The notes beneath the pieces are model-generated. The model saw nothing but the letters and a program-made list of their open reading frames with translations, did not search any database and was not told where the DNA came from. 31,811 nt of DNA, taken from NCBI GenBank assembly GCA_016185875.1, contig JACPMS010000042.1, forward strand, positions 1 to 31,811. The letters run 5' to 3'. The position numbers and the translations under genes are program-made. Source of the DNA: Candidatus Woesearchaeota archaeon. GTDB taxonomy: Archaea > Nanobdellota > Nanobdellia > Woesearchaeales > GW2011-AR4. Within the stretch, counting starts at the first letter, position 1; each line of letters begins with the position of its first letter. Below are positions 1,544-31,469 of this stretch, piece by piece.

Positions 1544-3594
1544 CCCGCTATTGTAAGTGTTTGTGCATTTTTAAAGGTTGCGTTTAATTCCTGCAAATCC
1601 TTAACCATATAAACCCCTTCCAATTCGTAGCCAATCTTTCTAAAGTATTCTCTCGCTCCGATTCCAGATAGAATAACCATCTTGTCTTTGCCGTTTTGCC
1701 TTGCAATCTCTTCTGCTTTAATTAAAAGAGACCTTCCTATGCCCTTGTGTTGAAAAGATGCTTCATCTTTTTTTCCAATCTGGACTGACGGGGAAAACAC
1801 ATGCAATTCCCTTATTAATGCAGAATCTTTTGTGATTTCATCCCTTAAAAACTGCGATGGAAACCTCAGCCTGCAAAAGCCAAACAAGACATCATTTGCC
1901 AAATCCTCTGCTGCAATGAAAATTTCTTTTCCTTGAGATGCTTCGTATTCCGTGACTGTTGTTTGGATATTATTAAAATTTATTTTTTTATTGCTTTTAA
2001 TGAAAAATCCAGCTTCCCTGCACCTAATGCATTTGCATTTGATATTTTTTTCAATGCAAATTTTTTCAACATACTGCCTCAAATTTGTTCGGTCAACTCC
2101 GGAAGCTGTCACAAATGTCGGTATGTCCCTTTGAACTCGCATTATCCTGCACCATTTTGGGACATGCTGCTTTGCCCCTGCTATTATTCCTGCTGCTTCT
2201 TTTGTGGTCAATGGAGTGAATTTTCCAGCTTTCCAATCCTCATATAATTTTGTTCCTTCCATCACCATGCAAGGGTAAATCTTCAGCATGTCTGGACGAT
2301 AATCGGGATTTTCAAATAATTGCTTTAAGCCATGCAAATCCATCTCTTTTGTCGTCAGAGGAAGCCCTGGCATATAATGGGCATTAATTTTGAATCCCAA
2401 GTCCTTCAAAATACTTATCGACTCGATGTTGTCATTGACTGTATTGCCCCTGCTAGTTGCTTCAAGAACATCGTCATAAATGCTTTGCACTCCAATTTCA
2501 ACCCTTGTGCACCCCAATTCCAGCATCAAATTCCCATGATAGAGCTTTCCAAAGTCGCTTTTTGTCTCTATAGTCAAGCCGACGCACCTTATAAAAGAAG
2601 TTTCATTTTCTTTCTGCATTTGTTTTAATGTAATATTTTTGTTGTCTTCATTATTTAATTTTTGTTGAATATGTTTAATTGAAGTGGTATTTGGATTTTG
2701 AATCGAATTTTCAATGATGCTTAGTTTTGTATTTTGTTCTGACACATTTATTTCATTTGCATTATTGTACTCTATCTTTCTTAACGCATTAAAATTTTGA
2801 ACATTATTTATTTTAAAAAAATCACCTATAAAAACATCATCTCCAAAAAACAAATACTCCGCTTTTTCCTTAACTTTCAAATTATTTAAATCCAAGTTTT
2901 TGATGTACAATAGTTTTTGCTGGGTTTTTTTAATTCTTTTATCCTCTTCGCTTAATACTCTGGGAAGTTCAAAGAATTTCTTGAATTTCAAAATATCCAG
3001 GTTTCCATCCTTGCTAAAAAACAATCTTGAGAAGTCGTTCATCGCCTTCAGCGCGTATTTGACAAAATATTCCTGATAAGCCTTTGGGAAAAAAGTGAAT
3101 GTCCCGCCCTGAATGATTATTTCAGCCTTGTCCGGCACTCTGCCCATGGCAACATAATGCTCAAGCCTGTTGAACACAATCAGGTAAGGGTCATAACTGT
3201 TTCTTATCGCCCTTCTTGTTGACGGCTCTTTTCCTGTATAGCTTTGGGGAACATTGCCAAATGCAGAGCCAGGCCCGCCAGGGCAGTACGTGCAAGGGCC
3301 GATGCCCTGCATGGTATGGGGGCAAGGATAAGGCTCTGACATCAATGCAATTGGCGCAACCCCGCTTATTGTCCTTACTGGCTTTAGGGAAAGCAGCTCC
3401 TTGAATTTTTCCCTTTCATTATCAGAAGCTGCAAGGTAAATATCGGCATTTTTCGGTATTTGTTTTAAGTTCGCCTTTGACTTATATTTACTCAATATTT
3501 TTAATTTTGTTTGGGTTAATTCATGTTGTGTTTTAATACTATTTTTTTTTAGTTCTTCTAGTATTTCAACACATACTTGTTGGAATTTGTCCAT
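1531..3594 (-). CDS. elp3: Elp3 tRNA wobble-uridine acetyltransferase (radical SAM + GNAT) with an AT-rich in-frame insertion
   Basis: CPH...CTYCPGG cluster motif, QSYTGKEP, RVEIGVQS, KIYPC, RVQRDIP, ALIRELHV, FQHKGIG. Overlaps the lonB start by 13 nt. Confidence 0.95.
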   Translation of the reverse strand: MDKFQQVCVEILEELKKNSIKTQHELTQTKLKILSKYKSKANLKQIPKNADIYLAASDNEREKFKELLSLKPVRTISGVAPIALMSEPYPCPHTMQGIGPCTYCPGGPGSAFGNVPQSYTGKEPSTRRAIRNSYDPYLIVFNRLEHYVAMGRVPDKAEIIIQGGTFTFFPKAYQEYFVKYALKAMNDFSRLFFSKDGNLDILKFKKFFELPRVLSEEDKRIKKTQQKLLYIKNLDLNNLKVKEKAEYLFFGDDVFIGDFFKINNVQNFNALRKIEYNNANEINVSEQNTKLSIIENSIQNPNTTSIKHIQQKLNNEDNKNITLKQMQKENETSFIRCVGLTIETKSDFGKLYHGNLMLELGCTRVEIGVQSIYDDVLEATSRGNTVNDNIESISILKDLGFKINAHYMPGLPLTTKEMDLHGLKQLFENPDYRPDMLKIYPCMVMEGTKLYEDWKAGKFTPLTTKEAAGIIAGAKQHVPKWCRIMRVQRDIPTFVTASGVDRTNLRQYVEKICIEKNIKCKCIRCREAGFFIKSNKKINFNNIQTTVTEYEASQGKEIFIAAEDLANDVLFGFCRLRFPSQFLRDEITKDSALIRELHVFSPSVQIGKKDEASFQHKGIGRSLLIKAEEIARQNGKDKMVILSGIGAREYFRKIGYELEGVYMVKDLQELNATFKNAQTLTIAGWLA

Positions 3595-17547: not shown

Positions 17548-17877
17548 ATGGCTATACAAAAAAATGATGCTGGAGGATTGGAAACAACTGTTGGAAAAGC
17601 ACAAAAGTATAGGGGAGTGCATAATGAAGTTGTGAATCTAAATGGTGGACAGTCAGTGATGTCTTTGCCAACCCCTGCAGACGATAAGAGTTTATACGTT
17701 AAAATATTTAAGGCTTACGGTATGCCACACGCATTCAAGTTCTTATTTTTAGAAGGCACTAAGGATCAAAATGGAGTTCCGTATTTGGATGCTGATTTAA
17801 AAGAAGTGTCATTAAACCGAATATATAGAATTCGGGATGGAGATACTGTCTTATATATGGATTTAGTAAGAGATTAA
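17548..17877 (+). CDS. Hypothetical protein
   Basis: 109 aa preceded by an AGGTGA Shine-Dalgarno-like site. Confidence 0.6.
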   Translation: MAIQKNDAGGLETTVGKAQKYRGVHNEVVNLNGGQSVMSLPTPADDKSLYVKIFKAYGMPHAFKFLFLEGTKDQNGVPYLDADLKEVSLNRIYRIRDGDTVLYMDLVRD

Positions 17878-17881
17878 GAAT

Positions 17882-18130
17882 ATGTCACTAGATGCAATAT
17901 CTGGAACAAAGAAGCAAAATCCTGGATATCAACTCAAACCAAATGGCAGTGAATGTCTGGAGCCAATACTTCAAAGAGCGTTAGCGGATGCACTCAAATT
18001 TAGAGAATATCAAGTAGTATTGCACAGGCTTCAAGATTTCCCTGTTGTAAATCCGTATGAAGTTATAGCTATGATGCATTTACCAACTTACTTACAAAAA
18101 TTGCAAGTCGACCTAAAACTGCAACAATGA
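17882..18130 (+). CDS. Hypothetical protein
   Basis: 82 aa, starts 4 nt after the previous stop. Confidence 0.5.
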   Translation: MSLDAISGTKKQNPGYQLKPNGSECLEPILQRALADALKFREYQVVLHRLQDFPVVNPYEVIAMMHLPTYLQKLQVDLKLQQ

Positions 18131-29675: not shown

Positions 29676-30671
29676 TTATGGGTAAGTATAGCTCAATATC
29701 AATTCCTTATTTGAGTTTCTTAGGTATAAGGTATCACCATCATCATTCCAAATACATGGGCTGTATTTGTTCCAATAAAGTTTTGTTGCTGTATTAGTGC
29801 CACTGCCACTGTACAAACTGAATATCGCTCCACTTTCTAATTCATAGCTTTGGAATCTGTAACTGTGTATGGAATCATCACTCATATTCCACCCCGTCAT
29901 GTCACATGAGAAAGAGCAGCTATTCTTAAATATTACATATTCGCCATTTGGAGTTTGACAATCATTTCCCTCTGCATTATAATTAAAATCCAAAATTGAA
30001 ATACACTTATCATCACATATATTTTGCTGCGGCTGCGTCGAATTTGTCTGATTTTGGCTTGTTGAGTCTAAGCATTGCCCGTTTTCACATCCATACTCAC
30101 ATATGTTATGGTACAGCCATAAATTGCCATCTTCATTGCATTCCATCAGTACATCACTCCTGCAGCTGAAATCGCCTGGGTTGCATAGGTTAATGCAGCT
30201 GTCATTCATGCAGCCCCTGTCGCAACGCTCAGCAAGCGTGAAGGAGCAGTTGGAAAGCCTGTAGCTCCTCTCGAATTTGGATATGCATTTCCAGCCCTCT
30301 TCGCAAGCTGGCAGATTTTCTTGAATTGGATAATCTGATATTCCTTCTGCAGAAATTTTGCATTTTGAGAGACAATTGAAGTCACTGTAAGTTTCATTTA
30401 CCCACTGCCCTGTCTTCAAATCGCACTCCATATAAGCAAAGTCATTCTTGCATTTCTCTTCTGTTTGGCAGCATTTTTCCTCGCAGAACTTCTCGCTTGG
30501 GTATTTGCATGCCCTTAAAATTTCAGTTGCAGCATGCCCAGTAATTGCTGGATTTTTGTCTGAATTCATTTCTTCGGTTATCTTTTCTGAACATCCATTT
30601 ATAATGAGCATCAAAATTGGCAAAGCTATGATCAAATAGATGAATACCTTAGATTTGTCAAGATTATTCAA
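29676..30671 (-). CDS. Probable lipoprotein with Cys-rich repeats and C-terminal lamin-tail (LTD) domain
   Basis: True start is near TTG 30671 (or GTG 30689), since the longer track ORF reads through the tRNA-Ser gene. Lipobox-like LIINGC, many Cys clusters, EYVIFKN...DMTGW...IWNDDGDTLYLRN. Confidence 0.75.
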   Translation of the reverse strand: MNNLDKSKVFIYLIIALPILMLIINGCSEKITEEMNSDKNPAITGHAATEILRACKYPSEKFCEEKCCQTEEKCKNDFAYMECDLKTGQWVNETYSDFNCLSKCKISAEGISDYPIQENLPACEEGWKCISKFERSYRLSNCSFTLAERCDRGCMNDSCINLCNPGDFSCRSDVLMECNEDGNLWLYHNICEYGCENGQCLDSTSQNQTNSTQPQQNICDDKCISILDFNYNAEGNDCQTPNGEYVIFKNSCSFSCDMTGWNMSDDSIHSYRFQSYELESGAIFSLYSGSGTNTATKLYWNKYSPCIWNDDGDTLYLRNSNKELILSYTYP

Positions 30672-30701
30672 TATAGCTATTATTACCACCCCTTTTTTGA
30701 A

Positions 30702-30974
30702 CGCCAAGGCCCGGATTACTTGGAATTGTTTAACGCCATAGCTCGAATTCTGCGAATTCGCGGACCTCGTGCATAGCCCGAGGTTTCGAGACCGCCGCAC
30801 TACCAGATTATGCGACAGTGGCACAACAATTCCAAGTTCCCAAAAACCTCTCAGTTTTTGCGATGAACCGAGAAGCCCTTGCGGGCAGCAGTTCTCTTGA
30901 AAAATTCGAGACTGCCGCAATATTCTGATTGTGAGGCTCGTTCCTCGCCAACTGCCAGATTCTGCCACCTTGGC
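30702..30974 (-). tRNA. tRNA-Ser(CGA) with three introns (20/21 at 30953-30922; 37/38 at 30904-30894; 57/58 at 30863-30718)
   Basis: Acceptor GCCAAGG/CCTTGGC, G73, anticodon stem GCAGT/ACTGC, variable arm GCCC-GCAA-GGGC, T stem CTCGG/CCGGG. Splicing gives an 84-nt cloverleaf with a TTCAAAT loop. Confidence 0.88.
30734..30822 (-). ncRNA. T-armless tRNA-Ser(CGA)-like element nested in the T-loop intron
   Basis: 31 of the first 38 nt match the spliced host tRNA. Enclosed by a perfect 12-bp stem CTTGGAATTGTT/AACAATTCCAAG. Confidence 0.7.
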
Positions 30975-30997
30975 GTATGAAGAGAAGAACATAACCA

Positions 30998-31005
30998 CTT
31001 TAAAA
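30998..31005 (-). promoter_or_regulatory. TATA box of tRNA-Ser
   Basis: AAAAG-TTTTAAAG on the minus strand at -31..-24 relative to tRNA position 1. Confidence 0.6.
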
Positions 31006-31015
31006 CTTTTACCTT

Positions 31016-31129
31016 TTAATCACTGCAATCCCACATAAATCCGCAATTTAAGCACACTAGCTTGCAATGCCTTTCTATCATCTCAAATCCGCAGACTTCA
31101 CATATAATTTTTTCAGATTTTTCCTTCAC
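31016..31129 (-). CDS. Small Cys/His zinc-finger protein (37 aa)
   Basis: GTG start with GGTG site upstream. Translates as MKEKSEKIICEVCGFEMIERHCKLVCLNCGFMWDCSD, matching the CxxCG..HCKxxCxxCG..DCSD pattern of small archaeal zinc fingers. Confidence 0.78.
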   Translation of the reverse strand: MKEKSEKIICEVCGFEMIERHCKLVCLNCGFMWDCSD

Positions 31130-31469
31130 ATTTGACACCAAAGGAGCCATAGCTTAGGCTTAAATTGAACTTCTTGCACAAGAGGTTCATGACTATTAAA
31201 TTTTTCTCAGACGAGTCCCTGACAATGCACTGCCTGAATCCCTTGTTGTCCCATATTGATGCGCCGTCAACCTTGTCGCAGAATGTGATAAACTCATTGG
31301 GCTTCTCGACGTTAAAAGTCTCTGTTGCATTCCTTAACTCTTTTTCTATCTTTTTAACGTCATCCGGCACTGTTATAAATGCCCAAAACACGCTTGTAAG
31401 CACAACTCCAATGACTAAAGCACCTACAAAAATGCCCCATGCTTCCAATTCAGAGTATGTTTTTGCCAT
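31113..31469 (-). CDS. Hypothetical protein with N-terminal transmembrane helix and four Cys
   Basis: TATA-like TTTTTAAAC upstream, hydrophobic N-terminus. Overlaps the zinc-finger gene start. Confidence 0.6.
   Translation of the reverse strand: MAKTYSELEAWGIFVGALVIGVVLTSVFWAFITVPDDVKKIEKELRNATETFNVEKPNEFITFCDKVDGASIWDNKGFRQCIVRDSSEKNLIVMNLLCKKFNLSLSYGSFGVKCEGKI

What the first reader, a model, noticed from the sequence alone, without database searches (positions are those of the whole stretch)
30718..30863. A tRNA-like element nested inside the T-loop intron of its own tRNA-Ser(CGA) gene
Seen in sequence: the 146-nt insertion in the T-loop contains GCCACTG-TC-GCAT-AATCTGGTA-GTGC-G-GCGGT-CT-CGA-A...TCCGC-hairpin-CTATGGC-G (30822-30734). 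It matches the spliced host at 31 of 38 nt. Its D-loop has no intron although the host gene does. It keeps the CGA anticodon, shows a compensatory A-U to G-C change in the anticodon stem, has no T arm, and is clamped by a perfect 12-bp stem. Established: excised archaeal BHB introns are circularised and can be stable. Inference: the intron may release a circular tRNA mimic (SerRS, anticodon-nuclease or modification-enzyme decoy), or it records capture of a processed tRNA into an intron. I know of no described example.
Basis: partly seen in the sequence, partly recalled or inferred. Interest (0 to 1): 0.92.

Follow-up and report, generated by a model that had tools for sequence, protein, structure and literature searches.

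The report
Broken tRNA nested inside tRNA gene
The "tRNA-like element" is the broken remnant of a second serine-tRNA gene that sits, Russian-doll fashion, inside an insertion in the T-loop of another serine-tRNA gene. Intact versions in related groundwater archaea point to a recurring way of duplicating, interrupting and replacing tRNA genes, which I could not find described.

Summary
The host is real. Removing three intervening sequences gives an 84-nt tRNA-Ser(CGA), and the T-loop insert is exactly 30863-30718 (146 nt, position 57/58).

The inner element is real but was mis-parsed. It is not an armless tRNA mimic. Relatives show that it is a truncated copy of a complete nested tRNA-Ser(CGA) gene:
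- a 38-nt 5' half;
- a 40-nt deletion;
- the last 5 nt, TGGCG.

Intact nested pairs occur in other Woesearchaeota genomes (G006, G010, G044, G261). In G016 and G255 the outer copy is the one that decayed.

The ends of the insert belong to a conserved, covarying two-hairpin element of about 55 nt. The nested tRNA sits in its second hairpin. This element shows no bulge-helix-bulge motif at its boundaries in any of six loci.

My best reading is that a small tRNA-carrying cassette entered the resident gene's T-loop, and that lineages then lost one of the two redundant copies, here the inner one. Whether the outer tRNA is still spliced is unproven (about 0.6).

The scan had already noted nested tRNAs on other DNA (DPANN Ser-UGA, CPR Ile). 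I found no paper describing them.

The parts
30702..30974 (-). Outer (host) tRNA-Ser(CGA) gene, acceptor type GCCAAGG. Exons are 30974-30954, 30921-30905, 30893-30864 and 30717-30702 (84 nt in all).
   Evidence: ARAGORN on the spliced sequence gives tRNA-Ser(cga) of 84 nt. The exons differ at one D-loop base from the free-standing gene of G035.
30922..30953 (-). D-loop intron (32 nt) with a canonical hBHBh' motif.
   Evidence: My BHB scan finds H = TCTG/CAGA, 3-nt bulges, h = 2 and h' = 4. Homologous D-loop introns occur in G035, G036 and G013.
30894..30904 (-). 11-nt intron at the canonical 37/38 position, with a relaxed motif.
   Evidence: Read directly from the sequence. The central helix has 3 of 4 pairs and the 5' site lies in the loop. 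Its removal is needed for the ARAGORN call.
30718..30863 (-). T-loop intervening sequence (146 nt) between A57 and A58. It consists of the two-hairpin element 'E' with the remnant of a nested tRNA gene in the loop of its second hairpin.
   Evidence: A community DNA contig lacks exactly these 146 nt. Homologous insertions occur in G006 and G016.
30838..30863 (-). Element E, hairpin 1 plus the conserved GGGA: TCGC-AAAAAC-loop-GTTTTT-GGGA.
   Evidence: Matches the family consensus of 22 free-standing copies (A1).
30825..30837 (-). Element E, 5' strand of hairpin 2 (13-nt clamp, ACTTGGAATTGTT).
   Evidence: It is the perfect reverse complement of 30730-30718. The stem covaries between G000 and G006 (GTT/AAC against GCAA/TTGC).
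30785..30822 (-). 5' half (positions 1-37) of the nested tRNA-Ser(CGA) gene, acceptor type GCCACTG.
   Evidence: 100% identical to G027, and identical to the inner gene of G006.
30739..30784 (-). The nested gene's own 45-nt 37/38 intron plus A38.
   Evidence: Alignment A2 with the syntenic free-standing gene of G028. In G028 this intron has a perfect BHB (H = CTCG/CGAG).
30734..30738 (-). Last 5 nt (TGGCG) of the nested gene. The junction 30739|30738 marks a 40-nt deletion that removed the 3' anticodon-stem strand, the variable arm, the T arm and three acceptor bases.
   Evidence: Alignment A2. ARAGORN finds no tRNA here.
30718..30730 (-). Element E, 3' strand of hairpin 2 (AACAATTCCAAGT), ending in the family's conserved AAGT.
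31016..31150 (-). Small zinc-ribbon ORF (44 aa) just upstream. It serves as the synteny marker of the tRNA-Ser(CGA) locus in this genus.
   Evidence: tblastn finds it next to the tRNA-Ser(CGA) gene in 13 relatives, whatever the tRNA's acceptor type.

Best explanation
The inner element is a pseudogene. It is the remnant of a complete tRNA-Ser(CGA) gene (acceptor GCCACTG, with its own 37/38 intron) that lay nested in the resident tRNA-Ser(CGA) gene (acceptor GCCAAGG).

How it got there (inferred). The nested gene sits in the loop of the second hairpin of a conserved two-hairpin element of about 55 nt (E). E is inserted precisely between T-loop positions 57 and 58. I infer that the cassette 'E plus tRNA' entered the resident gene as DNA. 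This created two redundant copies of the same isoacceptor under one promoter.

What happened next (shown by comparison). Lineages then lose one copy.
- In G016 and G255 the outer shell decayed.
- In G028 and G007 only the inner type is left at this locus.
- In this genome a 40-nt deletion destroyed the inner copy and the outer copy stayed intact.

Consequence (inferred, not shown). The outer gene is the working tRNA-Ser(CGA) here. Its 146-nt insertion must then be cut out of the precursor at A57|U and U|A58, where the two ends of E abut on one continuous helix. No canonical bulge-helix-bulge motif is available there.

The truncated inner element has no function of its own.
For: Inner element is a truncated nested gene:
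- A2 shows the 5' half, a homologous 45-nt intron, A38, a 40-nt gap and TGGCG.
- The complete inner genes in relatives are called as tRNAs by ARAGORN: Ser(cga) in G006 and G010, Ser(tga) in G044 and G261 (sequences).

Same locus:
- The zinc-ribbon ORF lies upstream in 13 relatives.
- G028's free-standing ACTG-type gene has both flanks homologous to those of the window's outer gene.

Element E:
- 22 free-standing copies have 98% paired cells and 7 pairs with changes on both sides. No shuffle out of 500 reaches these values.
- TTTTTGGGAAYTT occurs 104 times against 33 for the control in 43 genomes of the genus.
- At orthologous sites E is 91-94% identical while its flanks are 62-81% identical.

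Either copy can be lost:
- The G016 outer gene lacks its anticodon arm, and hairpin 1 of E is also broken.
- In G255 the outer 5' part and E's 5' part are deleted. The inner gene sits directly behind the same promoter, and the outer 3' end is left as a scar.
- The window shows the opposite outcome.

Outer gene probably in use:
- It gives a perfect cloverleaf.
- It has a good D-loop BHB.
- Between G000 and G006, four outer stem pairs differ on both sides and still pair.
- Every genome of the genus that is at least 90% complete has a match to parts of this tRNA-Ser(CGA) locus. I checked the sequence in only some of them.
- No other tRNA-Ser(CGA) is found in this assembly.
Against: - At the 57/58 boundaries, 0-1 of 4 central-helix pairs can form in all six loci. 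The known archaeal splicing signal is therefore missing, and removal of the insert is unexplained.
- No RNA data exist. Only groundwater DNA runs hold the sequence.
- In a trm1-like ORF of G017 the element is 54 nt long, in frame and without a stop. This fits a DNA-level palindromic insertion that need not be spliced.
- The assembly is only 63% complete, so another tRNA-Ser(CGA) could exist elsewhere.
- A 94%-similar strain variant that shares the truncated junction carries two substitutions in the outer 3' exon. I could not check these for compensation.
- No contig that I saw spans the whole locus.
- How the cassette inserts, and why it inserts into the cognate tRNA, is unknown.
Confidence: 0.6

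Rival explanations
1. Dead shell. The cassette killed the resident (outer) gene on arrival and its own tRNA took over, as earlier agents proposed for CPR tRNA-Ile cassettes. Because the inner copy is now truncated as well, the whole locus in this genome or strain is a double pseudogene. UCG codons would then be read by another tRNA-Ser, or by a copy in the unassembled 37% of the genome.
For: - There is no BHB at the insert boundaries in six loci.
- The outer shells of G016 and G255 are clearly decayed or deleted.
- The element sits in frame in a protein gene, like a DNA-level palindromic element.
- A strain variant has two changes in the outer 3' exon.
- The earlier notes e1-2118543 and e1-4542931 read similar shells as dead.
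Against: - The outer exons are intact in G000, G010, G044 and G261, and nearly so in G006. Stem differences are compensated.
- Hairpin 1 of E is broken only where the outer gene is also dead (G016).
- Loss of the inner copy would leave no tRNA-Ser(CGA) at the locus where the other members of the genus that I examined keep one.
- Alternative loss of either copy is what is expected when both worked.
Confidence: 0.3
2. The inner element is a selected, functional armless tRNA mimic. It would be released as a stable circular intron and act as a decoy for SerRS, anticodon nucleases or modification enzymes.
For: - The 5' half is perfectly conserved.
- The 13-bp clamp is intact.
- The region folds strongly (z = -6.2).
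Against: - The supposed anticodon-stem, variable and acceptor strands are intron sequence.
- Relatives hold a normal full tRNA gene in this slot.
- The truncated form is seen only here and in near-identical strains. A full-length variant co-occurs in the same samples.
Confidence: 0.03
3. Assembly artefact. The locus is a chimera of two tRNA-Ser alleles from co-occurring strains.
For: - The samples hold many related tRNA-Ser variants.
- Contigs break inside the locus, and none that I saw spans it whole.
- One exact contig leaves the window at 30739 and continues into a full-length 3' half.
Against: - The same nested architecture is present in independently assembled genomes: G006, G016, G010, G044 and G261.
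- A contig of a 94%-similar strain crosses the truncation junction in two samples.
- No repeat is shared across the 30739|30738 junction that could cause a false join.
Confidence: 0.05
4. RNA-level origin. The nested copy arose from a spliced precursor tRNA that was ligated or reverse-spliced into the hairpin tip of an existing T-loop intron and was then copied back into DNA.
For: - The inner genes of G006, G010, G044 and G261 have no introns although their outer genes do.
- In G010 and G044 the inner body is identical to the outer exons.
- In G010 and G044 the inner gene keeps a T-run directly after it, like a primary transcript.
Against: - The window's inner copy and that of G016 carry introns. 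The window's intron is orthologous to the intron of genomic genes.
- No reverse transcriptase was looked for or seen.
- The acceptor stems of inner and outer copies always differ.
Confidence: 0.1

Closest known systems
Multi-intron archaeal tRNA genes with BHB introns at non-canonical positions (Thermoproteales, ARMAN; e.g. PMC3239211, PMC4090602)
   Same: The host has three intervening sequences (D-loop, 37/38, T-loop). The D-loop intron has a canonical hBHBh' motif. The lineage is a DPANN archaeon with many interrupted tRNAs.
   Different: The T-loop insert lies at 57/58 and has no strict or relaxed BHB that I could find. It belongs to a sequence-conserved two-hairpin family that also occurs outside tRNAs, and it contains (the remnant of) a whole tRNA gene.
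Split, tri-split and permuted tRNA genes (Nanoarchaeum equitans, Caldivirga, Thermofilum; PMC3218864, PMC3978253)
   Same: A long, perfectly complementary leader and trailer (13 bp here, 14 bp in G261) hold the two parts of the outer tRNA together, as in split tRNAs. Once RNase P and RNase Z had released an intact inner tRNA, the outer tRNA would in effect be a split tRNA.
   Different: All parts lie contiguously behind one promoter. The sequence between the halves is another copy of the same tRNA. No BHB lies at the junction of clamp and tRNA.
tRNA gene disruption by integrating mobile elements (Caldiarchaeum tRNA-Thr, PMC3293823; integrase-type elements that target tRNA genes)
   Same: A tRNA gene is interrupted and duplicated tRNA sequence is left behind. 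Alleles differ within a natural population.
   Different: There is no recombinase gene. The insert is only 51-146 nt. A whole tRNA is nested, instead of a 3' part repeated directly. No target-site duplication is present.
Small palindromic insertion elements such as Rickettsia palindromic elements and MITEs (from my own knowledge, not tested here)
   Same: The element is short, lacks a gene, is hairpin-rich and is present in 1-7 copies per genome. One copy is inserted in frame in a protein gene.
   Different: E is more conserved than its flanks at orthologous sites, and its stems covary. It always has the host's orientation and always lies at 57/58 in tRNAs. It carries a tRNA as cargo.
Nested tRNA genes noted earlier in this scan (e1-3233800 DPANN tRNA-Ser(UGA); e1-2118543, e1-4379453 and e1-4550697 CPR tRNA-Ile; e1-4542931 tRNA-Val)
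   Same: A complete tRNA of the same isoacceptor, wrapped in a hairpin, lies inside an interrupted copy. The arrangement recurs in relatives. I saw the Ser(UGA) arrangement myself in G044 and G261.
   Different: Here the inner copy is the one that decayed. The carrier is a defined two-hairpin element in the T-loop. The CPR cases are bacterial, lie in the anticodon or D-loop, and were read as dead shells.

Membership tests
Functional tRNA gene (claim for the inner element) | A complete cloverleaf: acceptor, D, anticodon and T arms, plus the long variable arm for tRNA-Ser. | tested here: not met
   ARAGORN finds nothing in the inner element or the intron. A2 shows that 40 nt are missing, which include the 3' anticodon-stem strand, the variable arm and the T arm.
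Functional tRNA gene (claim for the outer gene) | Removal of the intervening sequences gives a canonical tRNA with the identity elements of its isoacceptor. | tested here: met
   The product is an 84-nt tRNA-Ser(cga) with G73, a long variable arm and a TTCAAAT T-loop.
Archaeal BHB intron spliced by EndA (claim for the 146-nt T-loop insert) | A bulge-helix-bulge motif at the exon-intron boundaries: a 4-bp helix flanked by two bulges, or a relaxed hBH/HBh' form (PMC3239211). | tested here: not met
   With the register that fits the 37/38 introns of G028 and G027, 0-1 of 4 central pairs form at the 57/58 boundaries in G000, G006, G010, G044, G261 and G324. Folding gives a three-way junction instead.
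Archaeal BHB intron spliced by EndA (claim for the 146-nt T-loop insert) | The insert is excised from the precursor RNA and the exons are ligated. | not testable with these tools
   No RNA run holds the locus.
Archaeal BHB intron (claim for the D-loop intron of the host) | An hBHBh' motif. | tested here: met
   H = TCTG/CAGA, 3-nt bulges, h = 2, h' = 4.
Nested tRNA-in-tRNA arrangement (known so far only from this scan) | Relatives hold a complete tRNA of the same isoacceptor inside an interruption of a second copy. | tested here: met
   Seen in G006, G016 and G010 (Ser-CGA) and in G044 and G261 (Ser-UGA).
Two-hairpin element E (family defined here) | 5' TC, an A-run/T-run hairpin, GGGAAC, a second hairpin ending in AAGT, with the two ends abutting on one helix. 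| tested here: met
   The window's 30863-30825 and 30730-18 fit the consensus and structure of A1.
Transposon or MITE | Target-site duplication and terminal inverted repeats; an associated transposase. | tested here: not met
   The insertion is precise, with no duplication (TTCA|AAT). No transposase was seen. In G004 the repeat that contains E is only 282 nt long. Having several copies per genome is met.
Split tRNA | The halves are transcribed from separate units and joined in trans. | not tested
   The parts are contiguous behind one promoter-like TATA region. The T5 run inside hairpin 1 could terminate transcription, but this was not tested.
Known RNA families (Rfam 15) | A match at or above the gathering score. 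| tested here: not met
   No family matches the locus or the free-standing copies of E.

The most novel reading that the evidence does not exclude
The two-hairpin element E may be a new kind of archaeal intervening element. In this reading it is removed from RNA without a bulge-helix-bulge motif: its two ends abut on a conserved 8-bp helix, so excision would leave a rod-like RNA circle of about 55 nt. It would also be mobile and able to carry a whole tRNA gene in its second hairpin. Insertion into the T-loop of the cognate tRNA gene, followed by loss of either copy, would then drive a 'Russian-doll' turnover of tRNA genes in Woesearchaeota. It would also offer a visible route by which tRNA introns, and possibly split tRNAs, arise.
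Probability: 0.3. Interest if true: 0.85.

Novelty: new variant of a known kind. Interest (0 to 1): 0.62.

Why it matters
How archaeal tRNA introns and split tRNAs arise is an open question. A 2026 census of Asgard tRNA introns found no general route of arrival (bioRxiv 10.64898/2026.10.13.758758).

This locus and its relatives show several stages side by side at one syntenic site:
- the resident gene alone;
- the resident gene with a small conserved element carrying a second tRNA in its T-loop;
- shells that are decaying;
- clean replacement by the inner type;
- here, the reverse outcome, with the inner copy destroyed.

If the outer genes are spliced, these archaea remove an insert that lacks the only splicing signal known in Archaea. 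If they are not spliced, the cassette is a gene-less selfish element that replaces the tRNA gene it destroys. Either answer is new.

The finding also matters for annotation. ARAGORN finds no tRNA in this window, and Rfam finds one.

Tried and rejected
- ARAGORN on the window found no genes. Rfam at gathering score found only the tRNA-Met at 25902-26026. Rfam at permissive E-values on the locus and on free-standing copies of E gave only chance hits or nothing.
- I looked for a canonical or relaxed BHB at the 57/58 boundaries. I tried several registers by hand and a scripted check on six loci, and found none. A GUUC/GAAC pairing between the T-loop and the conserved GGGAAC would cut at the wrong places, so I rejected it. 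I also considered K-turn, Sm-site, hammerhead and other small-ribozyme signatures, integron attC and IS200/IS605 ends. I did this from memory only, and none fitted.
- The genome-contig scan with GGTTCATC..TTTTNGRGAAC was too unspecific and gave mostly bacterial chance hits. The order-wide pattern GGTTCATCNNNAAAA mostly hit coding regions. The stricter order-wide pattern left only G000, G044, G261 and G324 as true T-loop elements among 401 genomes after I inspected the candidates that looked plausible.
- The search for related loci with the downstream ORF found nothing.
- Sequencing runs: only DNA runs hold the locus, so splicing could not be tested.
- The EndA (PF01974) search of the genome gave only a 20-position match at a contig end, below the cut-off. 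It is uninformative about the enzyme type.
- I looked for a larger mobile element around E in G004. The shared repeat is only 282 nt and contains no gene.
- Four literature searches found no description of a tRNA gene nested in a tRNA gene.

Full report
**What is at the coordinates**

On the minus strand, 30974-30702 encodes a tRNA-Ser(CGA) interrupted three times. I removed a 32-nt D-loop sequence (30953-30922), an 11-nt sequence at 37/38 (30904-30894) and the 146-nt T-loop sequence (30863-30718). ARAGORN then calls an 84-nt tRNA-Ser(cga) with a long variable arm, a TTCAAAT T-loop and G73.

ARAGORN finds nothing in the unspliced gene, and Rfam's tRNA model does not reach it. The D-loop sequence has a canonical hBHBh' motif (H = TCTG/CAGA, h = 2, h' = 4).

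- the insert coordinates;
- 31 of 38 identities between the inner 5' part and the spliced host;
- a perfect clamp, which is 13 bp, not 12 (30837-30825 with 30730-30718).

**What the inner element is**

A search of 60 related genomes with the locus found the insert itself in relatives:
- G006: 82% identity over query positions 99-288;
- G016: 77%;
- G028: 79%, over the inner part only;
- G027: 39 nt that are 100% identical.

Reading these loci settles the anatomy.
- In G006 the same T-loop position of the same outer gene holds a complete, intron-less tRNA-Ser(CGA) with acceptor GCCACTG. ARAGORN calls it.
- In G016 the inner gene is complete, with a 20-nt 37/38 intron. The outer gene has lost its anticodon arm, variable arm and T-stem strand.
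- G028 has, at the syntenic site, only a free-standing GCCACTG-type gene. Its 45-nt 37/38 intron forms a perfect BHB and is homologous to window 30784-30740.

Alignment A2 shows the window's inner element as:
- a 38-nt 5' half;
- that 45-nt intron;
- A38;
- a 40-nt gap;
- TGGCG.

The real 3' anticodon-stem strand, variable arm and T arm are deleted. There is no anticodon stem in this copy, and so no compensatory pair.

**The carrier**

The 5' 39 nt and the 3' 13 nt of the insert are not arbitrary. The same architecture occurs as free-standing copies of 47-58 nt in the genus. It reads: TC, an A-run/T-run hairpin, GGGAAC, and a second hairpin ending in AAGT.

- The signature TTTTTGGGAAYTT occurs 104 times against 33 for the reversed control in 43 genomes. 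This genome holds only the one copy.
- Twenty-two copies align as A1. The consensus fold has two abutting hairpins, so the first and last bases of the element pair with adjacent bases of the GGGAAC strand.
- In A1, 98% of cells are paired and 7 pairs change on both sides. No shuffle out of 500 reaches these values, and the slid controls collapse.
- At orthologous sites the element is 91-94% identical while its flanks are 62-81% identical.
- No Rfam family matches.

In the nested loci the inner tRNA sits in the loop of hairpin 2.

**How general the nesting is**

- **G010.** The locus is the same as the window's, with the same zinc-ribbon ORF upstream. The outer gene is of the GCCACTG type, and E at 57/58 holds an intron-less GCCGGCG-type Ser(CGA).
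- **G044.** This genome belongs to another family. A three-intron tRNA-Ser(UGA) has E at 57/58, which holds an intron-less Ser(UGA).
- **G261.** This is a third family. A complete outer Ser(UGA) has an empty E at 57/58. Its nested copy lies in a separate intervening sequence between the variable arm and the T stem, held by a 14-bp clamp.
- **G324.** An empty E lies in the T-loop of a partial 3' duplicate behind what I read as a tRNA-Glu.
- **G255.** This is a congener of G044 with the same promoter. The outer 5' part and the 5' part of E are deleted, and the inner gene sits directly behind the promoter. The 3' part of E and the outer 3' end remain as a scar.

In G010, G044 and G261 the inner copy shares the outer copy's anticodon and variable arms, but the acceptor stem always differs at pairs 4-7.

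Among 401 genomes sampled across the order, only G000, G044, G261 and G324 have E in a T-loop. In the genus, 4 of 43 do.

One relative is recorded as Candidatus Woesearchaeota archaeon from groundwater.

**The locus through the genus**

The small zinc-ribbon ORF lies next to the tRNA-Ser(CGA) gene in 13 relatives, whatever the acceptor type. The GCCAAGG and GCCACTG types are therefore positional orthologs.

The gene varies greatly in intron content between species.

By the downstream gene, this genome is closest to G028 and G007. Both keep only the GCCACTG type, with both flanks homologous to those of the window's outer gene.

The simplest ordering is as follows:
1. The resident gene is of the GCCAAGG type.
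2. E carrying a GCCACTG-type gene inserts into its T-loop.
3. One copy is then lost. Either the shell goes (partly in G016 and G255, completely in G028, G007 and G027), or the inner copy goes, as here.
4. In G010 a further round follows.

Short direct repeats could mediate scarless loss of the shell: GCCA at the two gene starts and TGGCGTT at the two gene ends. This is my inference.

**Does the outer gene work?**

In favour:
- The outer exons are intact here and in G010, G044 and G261.
- Between G000 and G006 four outer stem pairs differ on both sides and still pair, and one is broken.
- Hairpin 1 of E is degraded only where the outer gene is dead (G016).
- Every genome of the genus that is at least 90% complete has a match to parts of this locus. 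Where I read the sequence, it was a tRNA-Ser(CGA) gene.
- This assembly shows no other tRNA-Ser(CGA).
- Alternative loss of either copy is what is expected if both worked.

Against:
- At the 57/58 boundaries, 0-1 of 4 central-helix pairs can form in six loci. I used the register that fits the canonical introns of G028 and G027.
- Folding gives a three-way junction: T stem, then UUCA, hairpin 1, hairpin 2 and AAU. This is not a known substrate form. The relaxed forms described for DPANN and crenarchaeal enzymes still have a bulge next to a 4-bp helix (PMC3239211).
- In a trm1-like ORF of G017 the element is 54 nt long, in frame and free of stops. It may therefore behave as a DNA-level palindromic element.
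- Earlier agents read similar bacterial shells as dead.

I put the outer gene's function at about 0.6.

**Assembly check**

Only groundwater DNA runs hold the sequence. Their contigs are short and break inside the locus.
- Exact contigs cover 30739-30813 and 30864-31148.
- A contig of a 94%-similar strain crosses the truncation junction in two samples.
- One contig joins 30717 to 30864. It represents an insert-free allele of a relative, and it confirms that the boundaries are precise and without duplication.
- One exact contig leaves the window at 30739 and continues into a full-length 3' half, so a full-length variant co-occurs.

No contig that I saw spans the whole locus. The independent assemblies of G006, G016, G010, G044 and G261 argue against a chimera.

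**Comparison and novelty**

Multi-intron, split and permuted tRNAs, and tRNA disruption by integrating elements, are known (PMC4090602, PMC3218864, PMC3293823). I found no paper describing a tRNA gene nested in a tRNA gene.

The scan had noted such nests before on other DNA:
- e1-3233800, for DPANN Ser(UGA). I saw this arrangement myself in G044 and G261.
- Several CPR tRNA-Ile and tRNA-Val cases.

This window adds three things:
- a defined, covarying carrier element in the T-loop;
- a syntenic series of states within one genus;
- the first case I know of where the inner copy, not the shell, was lost.

Noticed in passing
L041-L044 (G004), L057/L082, L036/L061/L068/L074 and others; family alignment A1: The two-hairpin element E occurs free-standing at 1-7 copies per genome in the genus. 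At orthologous sites it is more conserved than its flanks, and its stems covary. In G004 it lies near one end of a 282-nt gene-less repeat present in at least four copies, inside a further 11-bp stem.
   Followed up: partly
L059:1485-1538 (G017): One copy of E (54 nt) sits in frame and without a stop inside a trm1-like ORF, adding 18 residues. This resembles the in-frame palindromic elements of Rickettsia.
   Followed up: partly
window 29676-30998 (-): A mechanical 440-aa ORF runs open through the whole tRNA-Ser locus. The real downstream gene probably starts near 30611. Gene callers could mask the tRNA here.
   Followed up: partly
window 31016-31150 (-): A 44-aa ORF with four cysteines in CxxC-like pairs (a zinc-ribbon type) is conserved directly upstream of the tRNA-Ser(CGA) gene in 13 relatives.
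   Followed up: partly
G000:C16, about 2031-2190 (+): A type-II tRNA with a Ser-like D arm and G73 reads GAG as anticodon in the canonical register. It has an insertion of about 29 nt just after the T-loop.
   Followed up: no
L280 + L264 (G261:C44, about 17565-17910): The outer tRNA-Ser(UGA) has three interruptions. The complete inner tRNA-Ser(UGA) lies in a separate intervening sequence between the variable arm and the T stem, held by a perfect 14-bp clamp. An empty E occupies 57/58.
   Followed up: partly
L236 (G324:C22, about 33900-34260): What looks by eye like a tRNA-Glu(UUC) with a variable-region insertion is followed, after about 60 nt, by a partial 3' duplicate (T arm plus acceptor strand). 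That duplicate's T-loop holds an empty E. An antisense T-arm-like stretch lies just before it.
   Followed up: no
L016-L033: The tRNA-Ser(CGA) gene at this one syntenic locus differs between species of the genus in almost every intron. D-loop, 37/38, variable-arm and several kinds of T-loop introns come and go. A 45-nt 37/38 intron is shared by both acceptor types.
   Followed up: partly
window, whole: ARAGORN finds no tRNA in the window, and Rfam's tRNA model finds only 7 in the whole 770-kb assembly.
   Followed up: no
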